From assembly GCA_000165345.1 (NCBI GenBank), contig CM000434.1:288001-352000 (forward strand): 64,000 nt of DNA, in the 5' to 3' direction. Positions 58,214 through 60,697 of this stretch are shown here, in pieces (position 1 is the first letter of the stretch; each line of letters begins with the position of its first letter). The notes under the pieces were generated by a model. That model saw only the letters and a program-made list of their open reading frames with translations, was not told the DNA's origin and searched no databases. A program made the position numbers and the translations under genes.

Positions 58214-60697
58214 ATGAAAATTTTGCGTCTTAAGTCACTTTTCTTTTTTCTTGAACTTTCATTGATAATAACTAATTCGAGTACGTATATTCCAAATGAC
58301 AATAAAATATTTTCTGGAGTATTTCTTCAATTATCAAGTAGAGAATTTGGAATCAAACAAAATAATGACAAAATTCAGGTAGGCTATAAAAATCAAACTA
58401 TAATAAGAACCGAATATAAAGATCATGACATTTCGCTTTGTGACATTGGATTCGCAATTTTGACAGCTCCCAAATATTTCAATACCAGAGTGAAAGATTT
58501 AAAAAATAGTTGGTTGAGACATTTATGTAGAACTGGTGGTGAACAGCAATTTTCTAGCAATTATGTGTTAATTTCATCTGAAGAACATACTGATATACCA
58601 ACAATGATACCCAATTGCGAAGAAAATTATCTAAATCTTTGTTGTAAAACTCTTGCATCTTACAAGTGGATGGTCAAAAATTGGCCAAAAAAAAAGTGGT
58701 ATATGAAACTTGATGACGACACTTTTGTGATTTTATCAAACTTAATTGATGAATTGAGCTCGTTTAATTCGAATGATAATATATTAATCGGTGGGCAAAT
58801 CTATTTAACATTAGAAGATTCATTGGCTAATTCTGTTACTGGTAGGTCGAATACTTTGCATTGGAAATATCATGGTGAAGTTATAAAAGGGATCAGAGGT
58901 GGTGCAGGGTATTTGATGAGCAACTCTTTAGCAAACTTATTTATAAAAAATGGACAAAGATATTTAGATATCTGCAACGATGGTGGCTCAAAATTTAAGA
59001 CATTCGAAGATGTATCTTTGTCACTATTGATTACAGAACTAGTAGGACAAAAATCAATAAAACACATCCCAGGGTTCCACTTTCATAACCCTGAAATCTC
59101 TTATCGTAATGGTTTTGATAAAAGGGGATTTAGACCCATTACATTTCACATGATGCACGATACTAGTAGAATGGAATTTTTTGATTATTTGTTGAATGGC
59201 TCAATGAGGCCTCCAACTTATTCATGTAACCACAGCTCTACAAATATGTGTATCTCTGAATTTGATCTTTCAATATCATCAAAATACTGGGATCCTGTTT
59301 ATTTTGGCCCATTGAGTTCTAATAGTTCAAAAATACTCGGGAAAAATGCTGTTTATAAAAGTAATTCTAAATCTGAGCATATATATATATACAACTCAAA
59401 TAAAAACAAAGTTGAATCTTTAAATAATTTAAATGTATCAAAGGTGAAACCTGTACAAAAAAGTACAATAGAAATGTCTTATCCAGAATATAGTCAATTA
59501 TCAAATATGCAAGTTACAAATGTATTCAAATTTGACGAACATTTAAATAACACAAATATTCCATTACAATTTAAATATAACTCGTTAGAAATAGAACATC
59601 CATGCAAAAATTTAATAGAGGAATATTCTAACAAATTAAAAAGTTACTATAAACAAGTTTTCACCGGAATTAAAGAGGTATTGTTTGTTGGTTTCCCAGA
59701 TCATCCAAACAGAGGAGATTCTGCAATTTTTACGGGTGCATTAATATTATTGGAATACTTGAAGATAAAAATTATTAAGGTAGTTCATTTATTGAATGAA
59801 TATAATGTGAATGAGATTCTTAATTCATTTAGCTATAAAACCGAGGAGAGAGCTATTATTTTCCATGGTGGAGGGAACTTTGGTGATTTATATTCTCATC
59901 ATCACGAATTAAGACATATTGTACTTAATGATTTTATTGATTACAAAATTATTATGTTTCCTCAGACAGTATTTTTCAAAAATGAAATAAATAAAGTTGC
60001 TACCAAAAAAAATTTTGTTAATCACAAAGGAGAAATATTCCTTGCAGCTAGAGACGGACACTCGTTGAAAATTATGACTGAAATGTTCAATGACGTAAAA
60101 CACATCAAACTTGAGTTGTTGCCTGACATGGCATTTTTAATTGGGGACCAAAGAAAGAGAAGGGGCATTCCTTCTCTCGATATACTGGTGCACGCAAGGG
60201 TAGACAACGAAGCTCCAGATTTAATGTTCAACAATACATTGGTAAAGATGAGCAAAATTAAAATAGAGAGTGTAAAAAAAGTGATAAAAGATAGTATTGA
60301 AATTGAGAATAATTCTGGAAAAGGTAAACATTTAAGCAAAGGCAACATTTTGATAAAAAATAAAGAATGGATCGACTACTTGACAATATTAATTGACGAT
60401 TGGTTAGATAGTGATGCAAACTACAATAATTTAATTAGTTCAGATTATATTGAAAAGTCGATTTCAAGAACATTAGATGGAATGGCATTTTTGTCTAGAG
60501 CCAACTTTGTAATAACTAACAGATTACATGGTCATATATTATTAACACTTTTGGGAGTTTCGCACATTGTCATGGGTGACTCATTTGGGAAATTAACAAA
60601 TTTCAGAGAAACATGGACTGCTAGCTGTCCACTATCAAGCTGGCATGACGAATTTTCCGATGCATTAGTTAGCGCATCAAAAGAATTGTATCAGTAA
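58214..60697 (+). CDS. Secreted or type II two-domain glycan-modifying enzyme. The N-terminal domain is GT31 beta-1,3-glycosyltransferase (core-1 GalT/Fringe/B3GLCT-like). The C-terminal domain is polysaccharide pyruvyl-transferase-like.
   Basis: Signal/anchor MKILRLKSLFFFLELSLIIT. GT31: FAILTAPKYFNTRVKDLKNSWLRHLC...VLISSEEHTDIPT ~ C1GALT1 [25 protein letters not shown]...LFMSSEENKDFPA; DxD WYMKLDDDTFV ~ WFLKADDDTYV; GGAGYLMSNSLANLF ~ GGAGYVLSKEALKRF. C-terminal: FVGFPDHPNRGDSAIFTGALILL...FHGGGNFGD...ITNRLHGHILLTLLGVSHIVMGDSFGK resembles the PS_pyruv_trans family (N/GxGD...RLHxxI...G). Confidence 0.65.
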   Translation: MKILRLKSLFFFLELSLIITNSSTYIPNDNKIFSGVFLQLSSREFGIKQNNDKIQVGYKNQTIIRTEYKDHDISLCDIGFAILTAPKYFNTRVKDLKNSWLRHLCRTGGEQQFSSNYVLISSEEHTDIPTMIPNCEENYLNLCCKTLASYKWMVKNWPKKKWYMKLDDDTFVILSNLIDELSSFNSNDNILIGGQIYLTLEDSLANSVTGRSNTLHWKYHGEVIKGIRGGAGYLMSNSLANLFIKNGQRYLDICNDGGSKFKTFEDVSLSLLITELVGQKSIKHIPGFHFHNPEISYRNGFDKRGFRPITFHMMHDTSRMEFFDYLLNGSMRPPTYSCNHSSTNMCISEFDLSISSKYWDPVYFGPLSSNSSKILGKNAVYKSNSKSEHIYIYNSNKNKVESLNNLNVSKVKPVQKSTIEMSYPEYSQLSNMQVTNVFKFDEHLNNTNIPLQFKYNSLEIEHPCKNLIEEYSNKLKSYYKQVFTGIKEVLFVGFPDHPNRGDSAIFTGALILLEYLKIKIIKVVHLLNEYNVNEILNSFSYKTEERAIIFHGGGNFGDLYSHHHELRHIVLNDFIDYKIIMFPQTVFFKNEINKVATKKNFVNHKGEIFLAARDGHSLKIMTEMFNDVKHIKLELLPDMAFLIGDQRKRRGIPSLDILVHARVDNEAPDLMFNNTLVKMSKIKIESVKKVIKDSIEIENNSGKGKHLSKGNILIKNKEWIDYLTILIDDWLDSDANYNNLISSDYIEKSISRTLDGMAFLSRANFVITNRLHGHILLTLLGVSHIVMGDSFGKLTNFRETWTASCPLSSWHDEFSDALVSASKELYQ

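What the first reader, a model, noticed from the sequence alone, without database searches (positions are those of the whole stretch)
58214..60697. Single secreted polypeptide fusing a GT31 beta-1,3-glycosyltransferase domain to a pyruvyl-transferase-like domain: a candidate pyruvylated-glycan cap pathway
The N-terminal ~350 aa align motif-by-motif with core-1 beta3-GalT/Fringe (GT31), including the DDD catalytic triad (WYMKLDDDTFV) and the GGAGY motif. The C-terminal ~330 aa carry the PS_pyruv_trans hallmarks (GGGNFGD ... TNRLHGHILLTLLG ... SFGK). In fission yeast, a GT31 beta1,3-GalT (Pvg3) and a pyruvyltransferase (Pvg1) act sequentially to build the 4,6-pyruvylated Gal-beta1,3 cap on N-glycans. 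Here the two activities appear fused behind one signal peptide. I am not aware of pyruvylated glycans being described for an apicomplexan-like parasite. The domain similarity is seen in the sequence; the Pvg1/Pvg3 pathway is established knowledge; the product and its role are inference.
Basis: partly seen in the sequence, partly recalled or inferred. Interest (0 to 1): 0.8.

Follow-up and report, generated by a model that had tools for sequence, protein, structure and literature searches.

The report
Cryptosporidium fused galactosyl-/pyruvyl-transferase gene (cgd6_1450)
This is a real, conserved Cryptosporidium parvum gene that joins a sugar-adding enzyme to an enzyme that caps sugars with negatively charged pyruvate; it is already annotated and known to be switched on in female stages, but the glycan it makes has never been found.

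Summary
Window 58214-60697 (+) is one uninterrupted 827-aa ORF, C. parvum cgd6_1450. Its N-terminal half passes the Pfam thresholds for GT31 (Fringe 71 bits, Galactosyl_T 41 bits). Its C-terminal half passes PS_pyruv_trans (84 bits) and matches the S. pombe Pvg1p crystal structure sequence at E=2e-51. All seven Pvg1p catalytic and PEP-pocket residues are conserved. The fusion is kept in more than 10 Cryptosporidium species and in Chromera, and occurs sporadically in a chytrid and other eukaryotes, so it is not a mis-joined gene.

It is not new. [quoted passage not shown] Tandel et al. 2019 listed it as female-gamete-specific and suggested an oocyst-wall glycan role.

What I add:
- The closest relatives are eukaryotic Pvg1-type enzymes.
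- Pvg1-like domains are repeatedly fused to partner glycosyltransferases or to TPT-family (PEP-transporter-type) carriers.
- The C. parvum TPT gene cgd5_3410 is induced in female stages in the same way as cgd6_1450.

The GT31 donor and acceptor are unresolved (C1GalT1 and B3GLCT are nearly tied). Published glycomics show only unextended O-GalNAc and simple N-glycans. "Secreted" is doubtful, because orthologues look type-II anchored. The product remains inference.

The parts
58214..60697 (+). Complete ORF of cgd6_1450 (827 aa plus stop), the GT31 + Pvg1-like pyruvyltransferase fusion
   Evidence: ORF. (100% identical to C. parvum CAD98690.1 / QOY41024.1). (the gene order cgd6_1410-1470 matches the window).
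58214..58279 (+). N-terminal hydrophobic segment (aa 1-22): a signal peptide or a type II signal anchor
   Evidence: Kyte-Doolittle. It is short and signal-peptide-like in C. parvum. In C. bovis, ryanae and serpentis it is 17-22 aa and anchor-like, and in Chromera it follows a 27-aa tail. The AF2 model predicts a helix at aa 6-22.
58421..59203 (+). GT31 (Fringe / C1GalT1-like) GT-A glycosyltransferase domain, aa 70-330
   Evidence: PF02434 71.4 bits, PF01762 41.1 bits. (profile hits to C1GalT1 5e-15, B3GLCT 2.7e-14, Manic Fringe 1e-8). (Foldseek hits to B3GNT2, C1GalT1 and B3GalT5). Identity across orthologues is 90-46%.
58712..58720 (+). DxD motif (D167-D168-D169), the metal and nucleotide-sugar binding motif of GT-A enzymes
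   Evidence: Invariant in alignment A1. Aligned with the DDD of C1GalT1 and B3GLCT.
58898..58912 (+). GGAGY motif (aa 229-233)
   Evidence: G229, G230, G232 and Y233 are invariant. Aligned with GGAGY of C1GalT1.
59006..59011 (+). E265-D266, the 'ED' motif of GT31 enzymes (candidate catalytic base)
   Evidence: Invariant in A1 and A2. Aligned with AEDV of C1GalT1. The role as catalytic base is inferred from family knowledge.
59204..59593 (+). Inter-domain linker (aa 331-460). It is conserved only within Cryptosporidium and is largely deleted in Chromera
   Evidence: alignment. (82-11% identity). (pLDDT below 50). (the linker HMM hits Cryptosporidium only).
59594..60694 (+). Pvg1-type ketal-pyruvyltransferase domain (GT-B-like fold), aa 461-827
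   Evidence: PF04230 83.7 bits. (5ax7 E=2.3e-51). (Foldseek ranks 5ax7 first, E=9.6e-19, TM 0.76 on the target).
59717..59719 (+). D502, equivalent to Pvg1p D106 (contacts Gal O6; D106A abolishes activity)
   Evidence: Invariant in A1.
59900..59902 (+). H563, equivalent to Pvg1p H168 (the acceptor-gating residue)
   Evidence: Invariant.
60050..60052 (+). R613, equivalent to Pvg1p R217 (binds PEP)
   Evidence: Invariant.
60125..60127 (+). D638, equivalent to Pvg1p D240 (shapes the PEP pocket)
   Evidence: Invariant.
60521..60529 (+). R770-L771-H772, equivalent to Pvg1p R337-L338-H339 (bind PEP)
   Evidence: Invariant.
60215..60379 (+). Variable insertion in the pyruvyltransferase domain (aa 668-722). 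It is not aligned to Pvg1p and is poorly conserved
   Evidence: gap between the two aligned stretches. (67-7% identity). (low pLDDT at 702-716).

Best explanation
cgd6_1450 encodes a bifunctional enzyme of the secretory-pathway lumen. It is made almost only in female gametes (macrogamonts), the stage that builds the oocyst wall.

Shown: there is one ORF. It contains an intact GT31 GT-A domain with the DxD, GGAGY and ED motifs. It also contains an intact Pvg1-type pyruvyltransferase domain in which every residue implicated in Pvg1p catalysis and PEP binding is conserved. An N-terminal hydrophobic targeting segment is present. Both domains are strongly conserved while the linker is not. Published RNA-seq shows female-specific transcription.

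Inferred: the GT31 half transfers a beta-1,3-linked hexose, most likely Gal from UDP-Gal, which the parasite can make. The fused Pvg1-like half then uses phosphoenolpyruvate to convert that sugar into a 4,6-ketal-pyruvylated, negatively charged cap. This is the order Pvg3 then Pvg1 follow in fission yeast. PEP would be imported by cgd5_3410, a TPT-family carrier with the same female-specific induction and the counterpart of yeast Pet1/Pet2. The acceptor is probably not an N-glycan. Candidates are O-GalNAc (giving a pyruvylated core-1-like structure) or another glycan on oocyst-wall or glycocalyx components. The product would add acidic charge to the oocyst surface.
For: Catalytic residues D502, H563, R613, D638 and R770-L771-H772 correspond to Pvg1p D106, H168, R217, D240 and R337-339, and all are invariant across Cryptosporidium and Chromera. 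The GT31 motifs are invariant.

The fusion is conserved in more than 10 Cryptosporidium species and in Chromera. It also occurs in Cladochytrium, in a eukaryotic metagenome contig, and in other sequences.

Fusion patterns support functional coupling. Among the 150 best representatives, Pvg1-like domains are also fused to TPT transporters (6 representatives, including Physarum), GT2, GT4-like, GT41 and a flippase.

The yeast precedent is Pvg3 (GT31 beta1,3-GalT) followed by Pvg1, with Pet1/Pet2 supplying PEP to the Golgi, and Pvg3 active only in a complex.

Expression is given as log2, in the order asexual / female in vitro / female in vivo. cgd6_1450 reads 1.7 / 6.1 / 8.4. The TPT gene cgd5_3410 reads 2.0 / 6.9 / 7.8. 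The UDP-Glc 4-epimerase reads 6.7 / 8.2 / 9.4.

C. parvum makes UDP-Gal and has a predicted UDP-Gal transporter and a predicted phosphate/PEP transporter.

The oocyst surface is anionic with pI about 3.3. Pyruvylation masks Gal from lectins.
Against: No pyruvylated glycan has been detected in Cryptosporidium or in any apicomplexan in the library searched. Mass spectrometry of sporulated-oocyst proteins found only unextended O-GalNAc, and Hex-HexNAc ions only from N-glycans. N-glycans and GPI anchors are reported as simple and unprocessed.

The donor sugar of the GT31 half cannot be read from sequence, because C1GalT1 (a GalT) and B3GLCT (a GlcT) score almost equally. Similarity to Pvg3 itself could not be tested. 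The predicted UDP-Gal transporter cgd1_40 is not induced in females.

The full-length structure model has low confidence (pLDDT 54), so nothing can be said about how the two domains are arranged. The link to oocyst charge and lectin masking is circumstantial.
Confidence: 0.55

Rival explanations
1. The GT31 half is not a galactosyltransferase. It would be a B3GLCT/Fringe-type enzyme that extends O-fucose on TSR, EGF or LNR-type repeats of female-stage or oocyst-wall proteins with Glc or GlcNAc. The fused pyruvyltransferase would then modify that sugar or a neighbouring one.
For: The best Pfam model is Fringe. Human B3GLCT scores 2.7e-14, nearly tied with C1GalT1. The assignment of the Cryptosporidium B3GlcT to cgd5_540 is described as uncertain. 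TSP1/LNR-repeat proteins such as cgd5_3420 are strongly female-specific.
Against: The Pvg1p residues that contact Gal (D106) and gate the acceptor (H168) are conserved, and Pvg1p is Gal-specific. The named sequence relatives found are all C1GalT1-like. A separate candidate B3GlcT, cgd5_540, exists.
Confidence: 0.2
2. The two domains do not act in sequence on one sugar. The protein would be part of a capsule-like polysaccharide or proteoglycan pathway for the oocyst wall, as Tandel et al. suggested, working with the second pyruvyltransferase cgd7_2583 and the UDP-glucose dehydrogenase cgd8_920. The fusion would serve only to place the two activities together.
For: Tandel et al. 2019 group these genes among female transcripts and draw a parallel with Acinetobacter capsule synthesis. 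Pvg1-like domains are also fused to a polysaccharide flippase, GT2 and GT4-like domains in other organisms.
Against: No wall polysaccharide and no polysaccharide synthase has been identified in Cryptosporidium. The closest relatives are eukaryotic Golgi Pvg1-type enzymes, not bacterial capsule enzymes. The protein fails the CsaB model (11.7 bits against a 213-bit cut-off). The GT31 + Pvg1 pairing mirrors the two consecutive yeast steps.
Confidence: 0.15
3. One of the two halves is a catalytically dead scaffold or carbohydrate-binding module, so only one activity remains.
For: In the related protein P0018 (TSA GHVR01078187) the GT31-like half is degenerate. It has AHDH in place of DDD and scores only 16.9 bits. 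This shows that such decay can happen in this family.
Against: In C. parvum and all Cryptosporidium and Chromera orthologues, the DxD, GGAGY and ED motifs and all Pvg1p catalytic residues are invariant. Both domains are much better conserved than the linker.
Confidence: 0.05
4. The fusion is an assembly or annotation artefact, meaning two adjacent genes were read through.
For: None was found. The 130-aa linker is poorly conserved and is modelled as disordered.
Against: The window has a continuous ORF. The same architecture appears in independent assemblies of more than 10 species, in a Chromera transcript, in Cladochytrium and in metagenomic eukaryotes.
Confidence: 0.01

Closest known systems
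Schizosaccharomyces pombe Pvg1p (pyruvyltransferase, PDB 5AX7)
   Same: The C-terminal 367 aa match it at E=2.3e-51 with about 40% identity. It is the best Foldseek match. D106, H168, R217, D240, R337, L338 and H339 are all conserved. Both carry an N-terminal membrane or secretory targeting segment with a lumenal catalytic domain.
   Different: Pvg1p is a stand-alone 401-aa type II Golgi protein, whereas here the domain is the C-terminal half of an 827-aa fusion. The window protein has a 55-aa variable insert (aa 668-722) that Pvg1p lacks. Its activity, acceptor and localisation are untested.
S. pombe Pvg3p (GT31 beta1,3-galactosyltransferase of the PvGal pathway)
   Same: It belongs to the same CAZy family (GT31) and has the same predicted position in the pathway, adding the sugar that is then pyruvylated. 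Pvg3p needs partner proteins for activity, which fits a physical fusion here.
   Different: Pvg3p is a separate gene in yeast. I could not obtain its sequence, so direct similarity and orthology are untested. The yeast acceptor (alpha-Gal on galactomannan N-glycans) is not known to exist in Cryptosporidium.
C1GalT1 (core 1 beta3-galactosyltransferase / T-synthase; Drosophila structure 7Q4I) and human B3GLCT
   Same: These are the best solved-structure matches to the N-domain profile (5.1e-15 and 2.7e-14). The DxD, GGAGY, ED and FH motifs all align. The named sequence relatives are animal C1GalT1-like proteins. The C1GalT1 acceptor, O-GalNAc, is abundant in C. parvum.
   Different: Identity is only about 25-30%. 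The near tie between a GalT and a GlcT means specificity cannot be assigned. Neither enzyme is fused to a pyruvyltransferase. The published C. parvum O-glycans are unextended GalNAc.
Bacterial polysaccharide ketal-pyruvyltransferases (WcaK, CsaB, EpsI, WcfO)
   Same: They share the Pfam family PF04230, and the original GenBank name refers to WcaK.
   Different: They are more distant. The protein fails the NCBIfam CsaB equivalog (11.7 bits against 213.1). The bacterial enzymes act on lipid-linked repeat units in the cytoplasm, whereas this protein enters the eukaryotic secretory pathway.
TPT-transporter + pyruvyltransferase fusions (e.g. Physarum polycephalum P0044) and S. pombe Pet1/Pet2
   Same: They show the same pattern of fusing the Pvg1-type enzyme to a pathway partner. 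They support the need for a TPT-type PEP carrier, which C. parvum has (cgd5_3410) and induces in female stages in the same way as cgd6_1450.
   Different: The fused partner differs, being a transporter rather than a glycosyltransferase. The substrate of cgd5_3410 is only predicted.

Membership tests
Pvg1-type ketal-pyruvyltransferase (Pfam PF04230, PS_pyruv_trans) | Sequence match to the family profile above the curated threshold | tested here: met
   83.7 bits against a cut-off of 25.3, covering profile positions 1-277 of 280.
Pvg1-type ketal-pyruvyltransferase (Pfam PF04230, PS_pyruv_trans) | Close similarity to the characterised enzyme Pvg1p, and the GT-B-like two-domain fold | tested here: met
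   5ax7 at E=2.3e-51. Foldseek ranks 5ax7 first with E=9.6e-19 and TM 0.76 on the target. The model has only moderate confidence in this half.
Pvg1-type ketal-pyruvyltransferase (Pfam PF04230, PS_pyruv_trans) | Catalytic and PEP-binding residues D106, R217, R337 (plus H168, D240, L338, H339) | tested here: met
   map them to D502, R613, R770, H563, D638, L771 and H772. All are invariant in A1.
Pvg1-type ketal-pyruvyltransferase (Pfam PF04230, PS_pyruv_trans) | PEP-dependent transfer of pyruvate to O4/O6 of beta-Gal | not testable with these tools
   This needs an enzyme assay.
Pvg1-type ketal-pyruvyltransferase (Pfam PF04230, PS_pyruv_trans) | Lumenal (Golgi) location with a PEP supply | tested here: inconclusive
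   An N-terminal hydrophobic segment is present. A TPT-family carrier exists and shows the same female-specific induction. There are no localisation data.
CAZy GT31 (Fringe / beta3-GalT / C1GalT1 / B3GLCT) | Sequence match to the GT31 Pfam models above threshold | tested here: met
   PF02434 71.4 bits (cut-off 21) and PF01762 41.1 bits (cut-off 23).
CAZy GT31 (Fringe / beta3-GalT / C1GalT1 / B3GLCT) | The DxD motif and the conserved GT31 motifs (GGAGY-type loop, ED motif) | tested here: met
   DDD 167-169, GGAGY 229-233 and ED 265-266 are invariant and align to C1GalT1.
CAZy GT31 (Fringe / beta3-GalT / C1GalT1 / B3GLCT) | GT-A fold | tested here: inconclusive
   Foldseek hits B3GNT2, C1GalT1 and B3GalT5 at E about 1e-5, but the model of this half has low confidence and TM scores are only 0.38-0.48.
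CAZy GT31 (Fringe / beta3-GalT / C1GalT1 / B3GLCT) | Specific donor (UDP-Gal) and a beta1,3 linkage | not testable with these tools
   C1GalT1 and B3GLCT are nearly tied, so an assay is needed.
S. pombe PvGal pathway (Pvg3 then Pvg1, with Pet1/Pet2) | Orthology of the N-terminal half to Pvg3 | not tested
   The Pvg3 sequence was not retrievable. The word-index search with the N-domain profile returned only animal C1GalT1-like proteins.
S. pombe PvGal pathway (Pvg3 then Pvg1, with Pet1/Pet2) | The product, 4,6-pyruvylated Gal-beta1,3 on N-glycans | tested here: not met
   This rests on literature only. C. parvum N-glycans are reported as simple, and no Gal-capped or pyruvylated glycans have been reported. 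The analyses done so far were not designed to find acidic wall glycans.
CsaB-type SCWP pyruvyltransferase (NCBIfam TIGR03609) | Score above the equivalog cut-off | tested here: not met
   11.7 bits against a cut-off of 213.1.

The most novel reading that the evidence does not exclude
Cryptosporidium macrogamonts run a compact pyruvylation module. It would consist of the cgd6_1450 fusion, the TPT-type PEP carrier cgd5_3410, and possibly the second pyruvyltransferase cgd7_2583. The module would put 4,6-pyruvylated galactose, a sialic-acid-like anionic cap never reported in any alveolate, onto O-GalNAc or other glycans of the oocyst wall or glycocalyx. This would explain the oocyst's very acidic surface (pI about 3.3) and why wall galactose is invisible to Gal lectins. 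The GT31-Pvg1 and TPT-Pvg1 fusions scattered across chytrids, Amoebozoa and chromerids would then mark a widespread but overlooked eukaryotic Golgi pyruvylation system.
Probability: 0.3. Interest if true: 0.7.

Novelty: already known. Interest (0 to 1): 0.4.

Why it matters
The composition of the Cryptosporidium oocyst wall glycocalyx is still unknown; a 2026 review says so. That layer governs environmental survival, adhesion, water-treatment behaviour and transmission.

This enzyme is specific to the stage that builds the wall, has no human homologue for its pyruvyltransferase half, and predicts a concrete, assayable chemical signature: a pyruvate ketal on a hexose. The 2022 genomic reconstruction of Cryptosporidium glycosylation left the gene out altogether, so the prediction is worth restating.

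The gene and its domain content are nevertheless already on record, and the new elements here are supporting bioinformatics, not a discovery.

Tried and rejected
- The full-length AlphaFold2 run with 9 orthologues gave a poor model (pLDDT 54, linker below 50). I used it only for a coarse fold search and drew no conclusion about the domain interface.
- The word-index homologue search with the whole protein found only orthologues. With the N-domain profile it found only animal C1GalT1-like proteins and not Pvg3.
- NCBIfam gave nothing above threshold.
- I could not identify the organism behind TSA GHVR01 (P0018). The neighbouring prefixes GHVQ and GHVS are Rhytidocystis.
- Chatterjee et al. 2010, which reports oocyst-wall lectin data, is not held.
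- The context of the stand-alone GT31 relative P0070 was uninformative.
- I considered a hidden intron, a frameshift or two mis-joined genes, and rejected all three.
- I considered bacterial contamination or recent HGT and rejected it. The gene sits in syntenic C. parvum chromosome 6 context, and its nearest relatives are eukaryotic.
- I considered a fission-yeast-type N-glycan cap and judged it unlikely given the published N-glycan data.
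Full report
**What is there.** The window is AT-rich (about 29% GC) and densely packed with long intron-poor ORFs. The ORF named in the finding runs from 58214 to 60697 on the + strand and encodes 827 aa. 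An in-frame stop lies four codons upstream of the first Met. The protein is 100% identical to Cryptosporidium parvum CAD98690.1 / QOY41024.1.

The neighbouring genes in the window are a histone deacetylase, a DEAH helicase, a protein kinase, E2F/DP, a coiled-coil protein, this ORF, a CRAL-TRIO/Sec14 protein and a Cys/His-rich protein with no Pfam hit. This order reproduces the chromosome 6 series cgd6_1410, 1420, 1430, 1450, 1460 and 1470 listed in the supplementary tables of Tandel et al. 2019. The gene is therefore cgd6_1450.

**Check of the observation.** Every sequence claim holds.
- Pfam places PF02434 Fringe at aa 73-315 (71.4 bits, cut-off 21) and PF01762 Galactosyl_T at aa 119-248 (41.1 bits, cut-off 23).
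- Pfam places PF04230 PS_pyruv_trans at aa 499-788 (83.7 bits, cut-off 25.3), covering almost the full profile.
- Against PDB sequences, the C-terminal half hits S. pombe Pvg1p (5AX7) at E=2.3e-51 in two stretches (aa 463-667 and 723-808), about 40% identical over 288 aligned positions.
- Even a poor full-length AlphaFold2 model (pLDDT 54) retrieves 5AX7 first in Foldseek (E=9.6e-19, TM 0.76 on the target). GT31 GT-A enzymes follow for the N-terminal half.

The C-terminal half hits both PF04230 and Pvg1. The two halves are also not separate genes: one ORF with both domains is present in C. hominis, meleagridis, tyzzeri, ubiquitum, canis, felis, bovis, ryanae and serpentis, in three unnamed assemblies, and in a Chromera velia transcript model.

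**Catalytic competence.** Higuchi et al. 2016 identified D106 (contacts Gal O6; D106A is inactive), R217 and R337 (bind PEP) and H168 (gates the acceptor) in Pvg1p. A later review adds L338, H339 and D240 to the PEP pocket. Using the HMMER alignment and an offset of 53 between chain index and residue number, these map to D502, R613, R770, H563, L771, H772 and D638. All are invariant in the nine-sequence alignment from C. parvum to Chromera.

In the GT31 half, the DxD motif (D167-D169), GGAGY (229-233), E265-D266 and H291 are invariant. They align with the corresponding motifs of Drosophila C1GalT1. Identity to C. parvum across orthologues is 90-46% for the GT31 domain and 86-44% for the pyruvyltransferase domain. 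It is only 82-11% for the 130-aa linker and 65-9% for the N-terminus. Both enzymatic halves are therefore under constraint, and the linker is not.

**Topology.** The only strongly hydrophobic segment outside the domain cores is at the N-terminus. In C. parvum it is short and looks like a signal peptide, which is how GenBank describes it. In C. bovis, C. ryanae and C. serpentis it is a 17-22-residue stretch. In Chromera it follows a 27-residue tail. That is the pattern of a type II signal anchor, as in Pvg1p and in fungal GT31 enzymes. Entry into the secretory pathway with lumenal catalytic domains is well supported. "Secreted" is not.

**Which GT31?** A profile of the N-domain (alignment A2) scores as follows against solved structures:
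- Drosophila core-1 beta3-GalT C1GalT1: 5.1e-15
- Human beta3-glucosyltransferase B3GLCT: 2.7e-14
- CHSY3: about 2e-9
- Manic Fringe: 1e-8
- B3GalT5: 2e-7

A database search with the same profile returned only animal C1GalT1-like proteins. S. pombe Pvg3 was not retrieved, so I could not test similarity to Pvg3. The donor (UDP-Gal or UDP-Glc) and the acceptor remain open.

The argument for Gal is indirect. The fused Pvg1-like domain keeps the Gal-contacting residues of the Gal-specific Pvg1p. C. parvum makes UDP-Gal through the epimerase cgd4_2600. The 2022 pathway reconstruction never mentions cgd6_1450.

**Distribution.** An exhaustive profile search of 1.84 billion representatives gave 5303 hits. 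Local HMM searches on the best 150 show both domains in seven further representatives beyond Cryptosporidium and Chromera. They include:
- Cladochytrium replicatum, a chytrid.
- A protein on a metagenomic contig with eukaryotic neighbours (SWIB, Rav1).
- A EukProt transcriptome protein with TSA prefix GHVR. The neighbouring prefixes are Rhytidocystis, an apicomplexan, but I could not name the species.

In the GHVR protein the GT31-like half has lost the DxD motif.

All of the closest Pvg1-like relatives that could be named are eukaryotic. They are chytrids (Blyttiomyces, Zopfochytrium, Chytridiales), Taphrinomycotina (Schizosaccharomyces, Savitreella), Amoebozoa (Protostelium, Physarum) and Vitrella. 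This is a patchy eukaryotic Pvg1 clade, not a recent bacterial capsule-gene import. The protein also fails the bacterial CsaB model.

No coccidian or haemosporidian was among the representatives whose source I could name. Most of the 150 best hits could not be named.

**Fusion partners as functional evidence.** In the same hit list, Pvg1-like domains are fused to the following partners:
- TPT-family transporters: six representatives, including Physarum polycephalum
- GT2
- A GT4-like domain
- TPR-GT41
- A polysaccharide flippase

The pyruvyltransferase is therefore repeatedly joined either to the enzyme that presumably builds its acceptor or to a carrier of the family that supplies PEP. In fission yeast, the TPT-type carriers Pet1p and Pet2p bring PEP into the Golgi for Pvg1p. 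C. parvum, although it has no plastid (my own knowledge), keeps a TPT-family gene, cgd5_3410, that TransportDB predicts to carry phosphate/phosphoenolpyruvate.

**Expression.** In the Tandel et al. data, log2 expression of cgd6_1450 is 1.7 in asexual stages, 6.1 in females in vitro and 8.4 in females in vivo. cgd5_3410 follows the same pattern (2.0, 6.9, 7.8). The UDP-Glc 4-epimerase rises more modestly (6.7, 8.2, 9.4). The predicted UDP-Gal transporter cgd1_40 does not rise (6.8, 6.1, 4.7). A second pyruvyltransferase, cgd7_2583, is also on the female lists.

**Prior knowledge.** The fusion is not a new observation. The 2004 genome annotation (EAK90125.1 / XP_627513.1) reads [quoted passage not shown]. 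[quoted passage not shown] Tandel et al. 2019 single out cgd6_1450 and cgd7_2583 among female transcripts and suggest a proteoglycan-type oocyst-wall structure.

What I did not find in the searchable library is any biochemical detection of pyruvylated glycans in Cryptosporidium or another apicomplexan, or any functional work on the gene. The 2022 genomic reconstruction of Cryptosporidium glycosylation omits it. The 2019 review of pyruvyltransferase sequence space limited its networks to proteins of 250-600 aa, which would exclude this one.

**Evidence that constrains the product.** Mass spectrometry of sporulated-oocyst proteins found O-glycans to be single, unextended GalNAc, with Hex-HexNAc ions coming only from N-glycans. 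N-glycans and GPI anchors are described as simple. An abundant yeast-style PvGal cap on N-glycans or on sporozoite mucins is therefore unlikely. The product is probably confined to material made in macrogamonts, such as wall-forming-body cargo, wall or glycocalyx. It could also be minor, or it may have been missed by positive-mode glycopeptide analysis.

Some circumstantial observations are compatible with a pyruvylated Gal, but they prove nothing. The oocyst surface is anionic with pI about 3.3. GC-MS finds galactose in walls, while the Gal-binding lectin AIA does not label intact oocysts. Pyruvylation masks beta-Gal from lectins.

**Verdict.** The two-step Pvg3-then-Pvg1 reading is the best available mechanism (my confidence is about 0.55). 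It is strengthened here by conserved catalytic residues, recurrent fusions to pathway partners, and the matching female-specific induction of a candidate PEP carrier. The donor, acceptor, product and location are all untested. The "secreted" label and the yeast-type N-glycan acceptor are doubtful. The gene's domain architecture and stage specificity are already in databases and in print. I therefore rate novelty as already known and interest as moderate (0.4). The value lies in a sharp, testable prediction about the unsolved chemistry of the oocyst wall.

Noticed in passing
window 45918-49194 (+): [quoted passage not shown] An intron interrupts the gene. The reading frame ends at ...[15 protein letters not shown] followed by GT, and resumes in another frame at ...[13 protein letters not shown]. 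Introns are uncommon in this genome.
   Followed up: partly
P0044, P0059, P0077, P0108, P0117, P0135 (proteins from the representative search; P0044 is Physarum polycephalum): These are single polypeptides that fuse a TPT-family transporter (PF03151, the family of the yeast Golgi PEP carriers) to a Pvg1-like pyruvyltransferase. This architecture links PEP import and pyruvylation, and I did not see it described in the papers I read.
   Followed up: partly
P0018 (EukProt, TSA GHVR01078187; 770 aa), aa about 150-270: This is the closest relative of the pyruvyltransferase half outside Cryptosporidium and Chromera. Its GT31-like half is degenerate, with AHDH in place of the DDD motif and only 16.9 bits to the GT31-domain HMM. 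That suggests loss of glycosyltransferase activity in that lineage. The neighbouring TSA prefixes are Rhytidocystis, but the organism was not identified.
   Followed up: partly
P0183 / P0030 (Vitrella brassicaformis CEM03916.1, 1209 aa): The chromerid Vitrella carries a protein with two tandem Pvg1-like domains and no detectable GT31 domain. Its relative Chromera has the GT31 fusion instead.
   Followed up: no
window 58202-58216: The original GenBank model EAK90125.1 / XP_627513.1 is 830 aa, three residues longer than the ORF. In the window the three upstream codons (FNN) follow a stop codon directly and contain no start codon, so the 827-aa model starting at 58214 is the correct one.
   Followed up: partly
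P0008 (C. felis orthologue, 804 aa): The C. felis gene model lacks the N-terminal hydrophobic segment that every other orthologue has. Its start codon is probably mis-annotated.
   Followed up: no
window 60022-60348 (-): A 108-aa ORF lies antisense inside the pyruvyltransferase domain. It has no supporting evidence and is almost certainly a chance ORF in AT-rich DNA.
   Followed up: no
outside the window: cgd5_3410 and cgd5_3420 (Tandel 2019 supplement): The female-induced TPT transporter cgd5_3410 lies next to cgd5_3420, a TSP1/LNR-repeat protein that is even more strongly female-specific (log2 about 2.4 asexual against about 9.7 female). It is a possible glycoprotein substrate or wall component.
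   Followed up: no
window 62153-63967 (-): A 604-aa Cys/His-rich ORF has no Pfam hit at E<=0.001 here. [quoted passage not shown]
   Followed up: no
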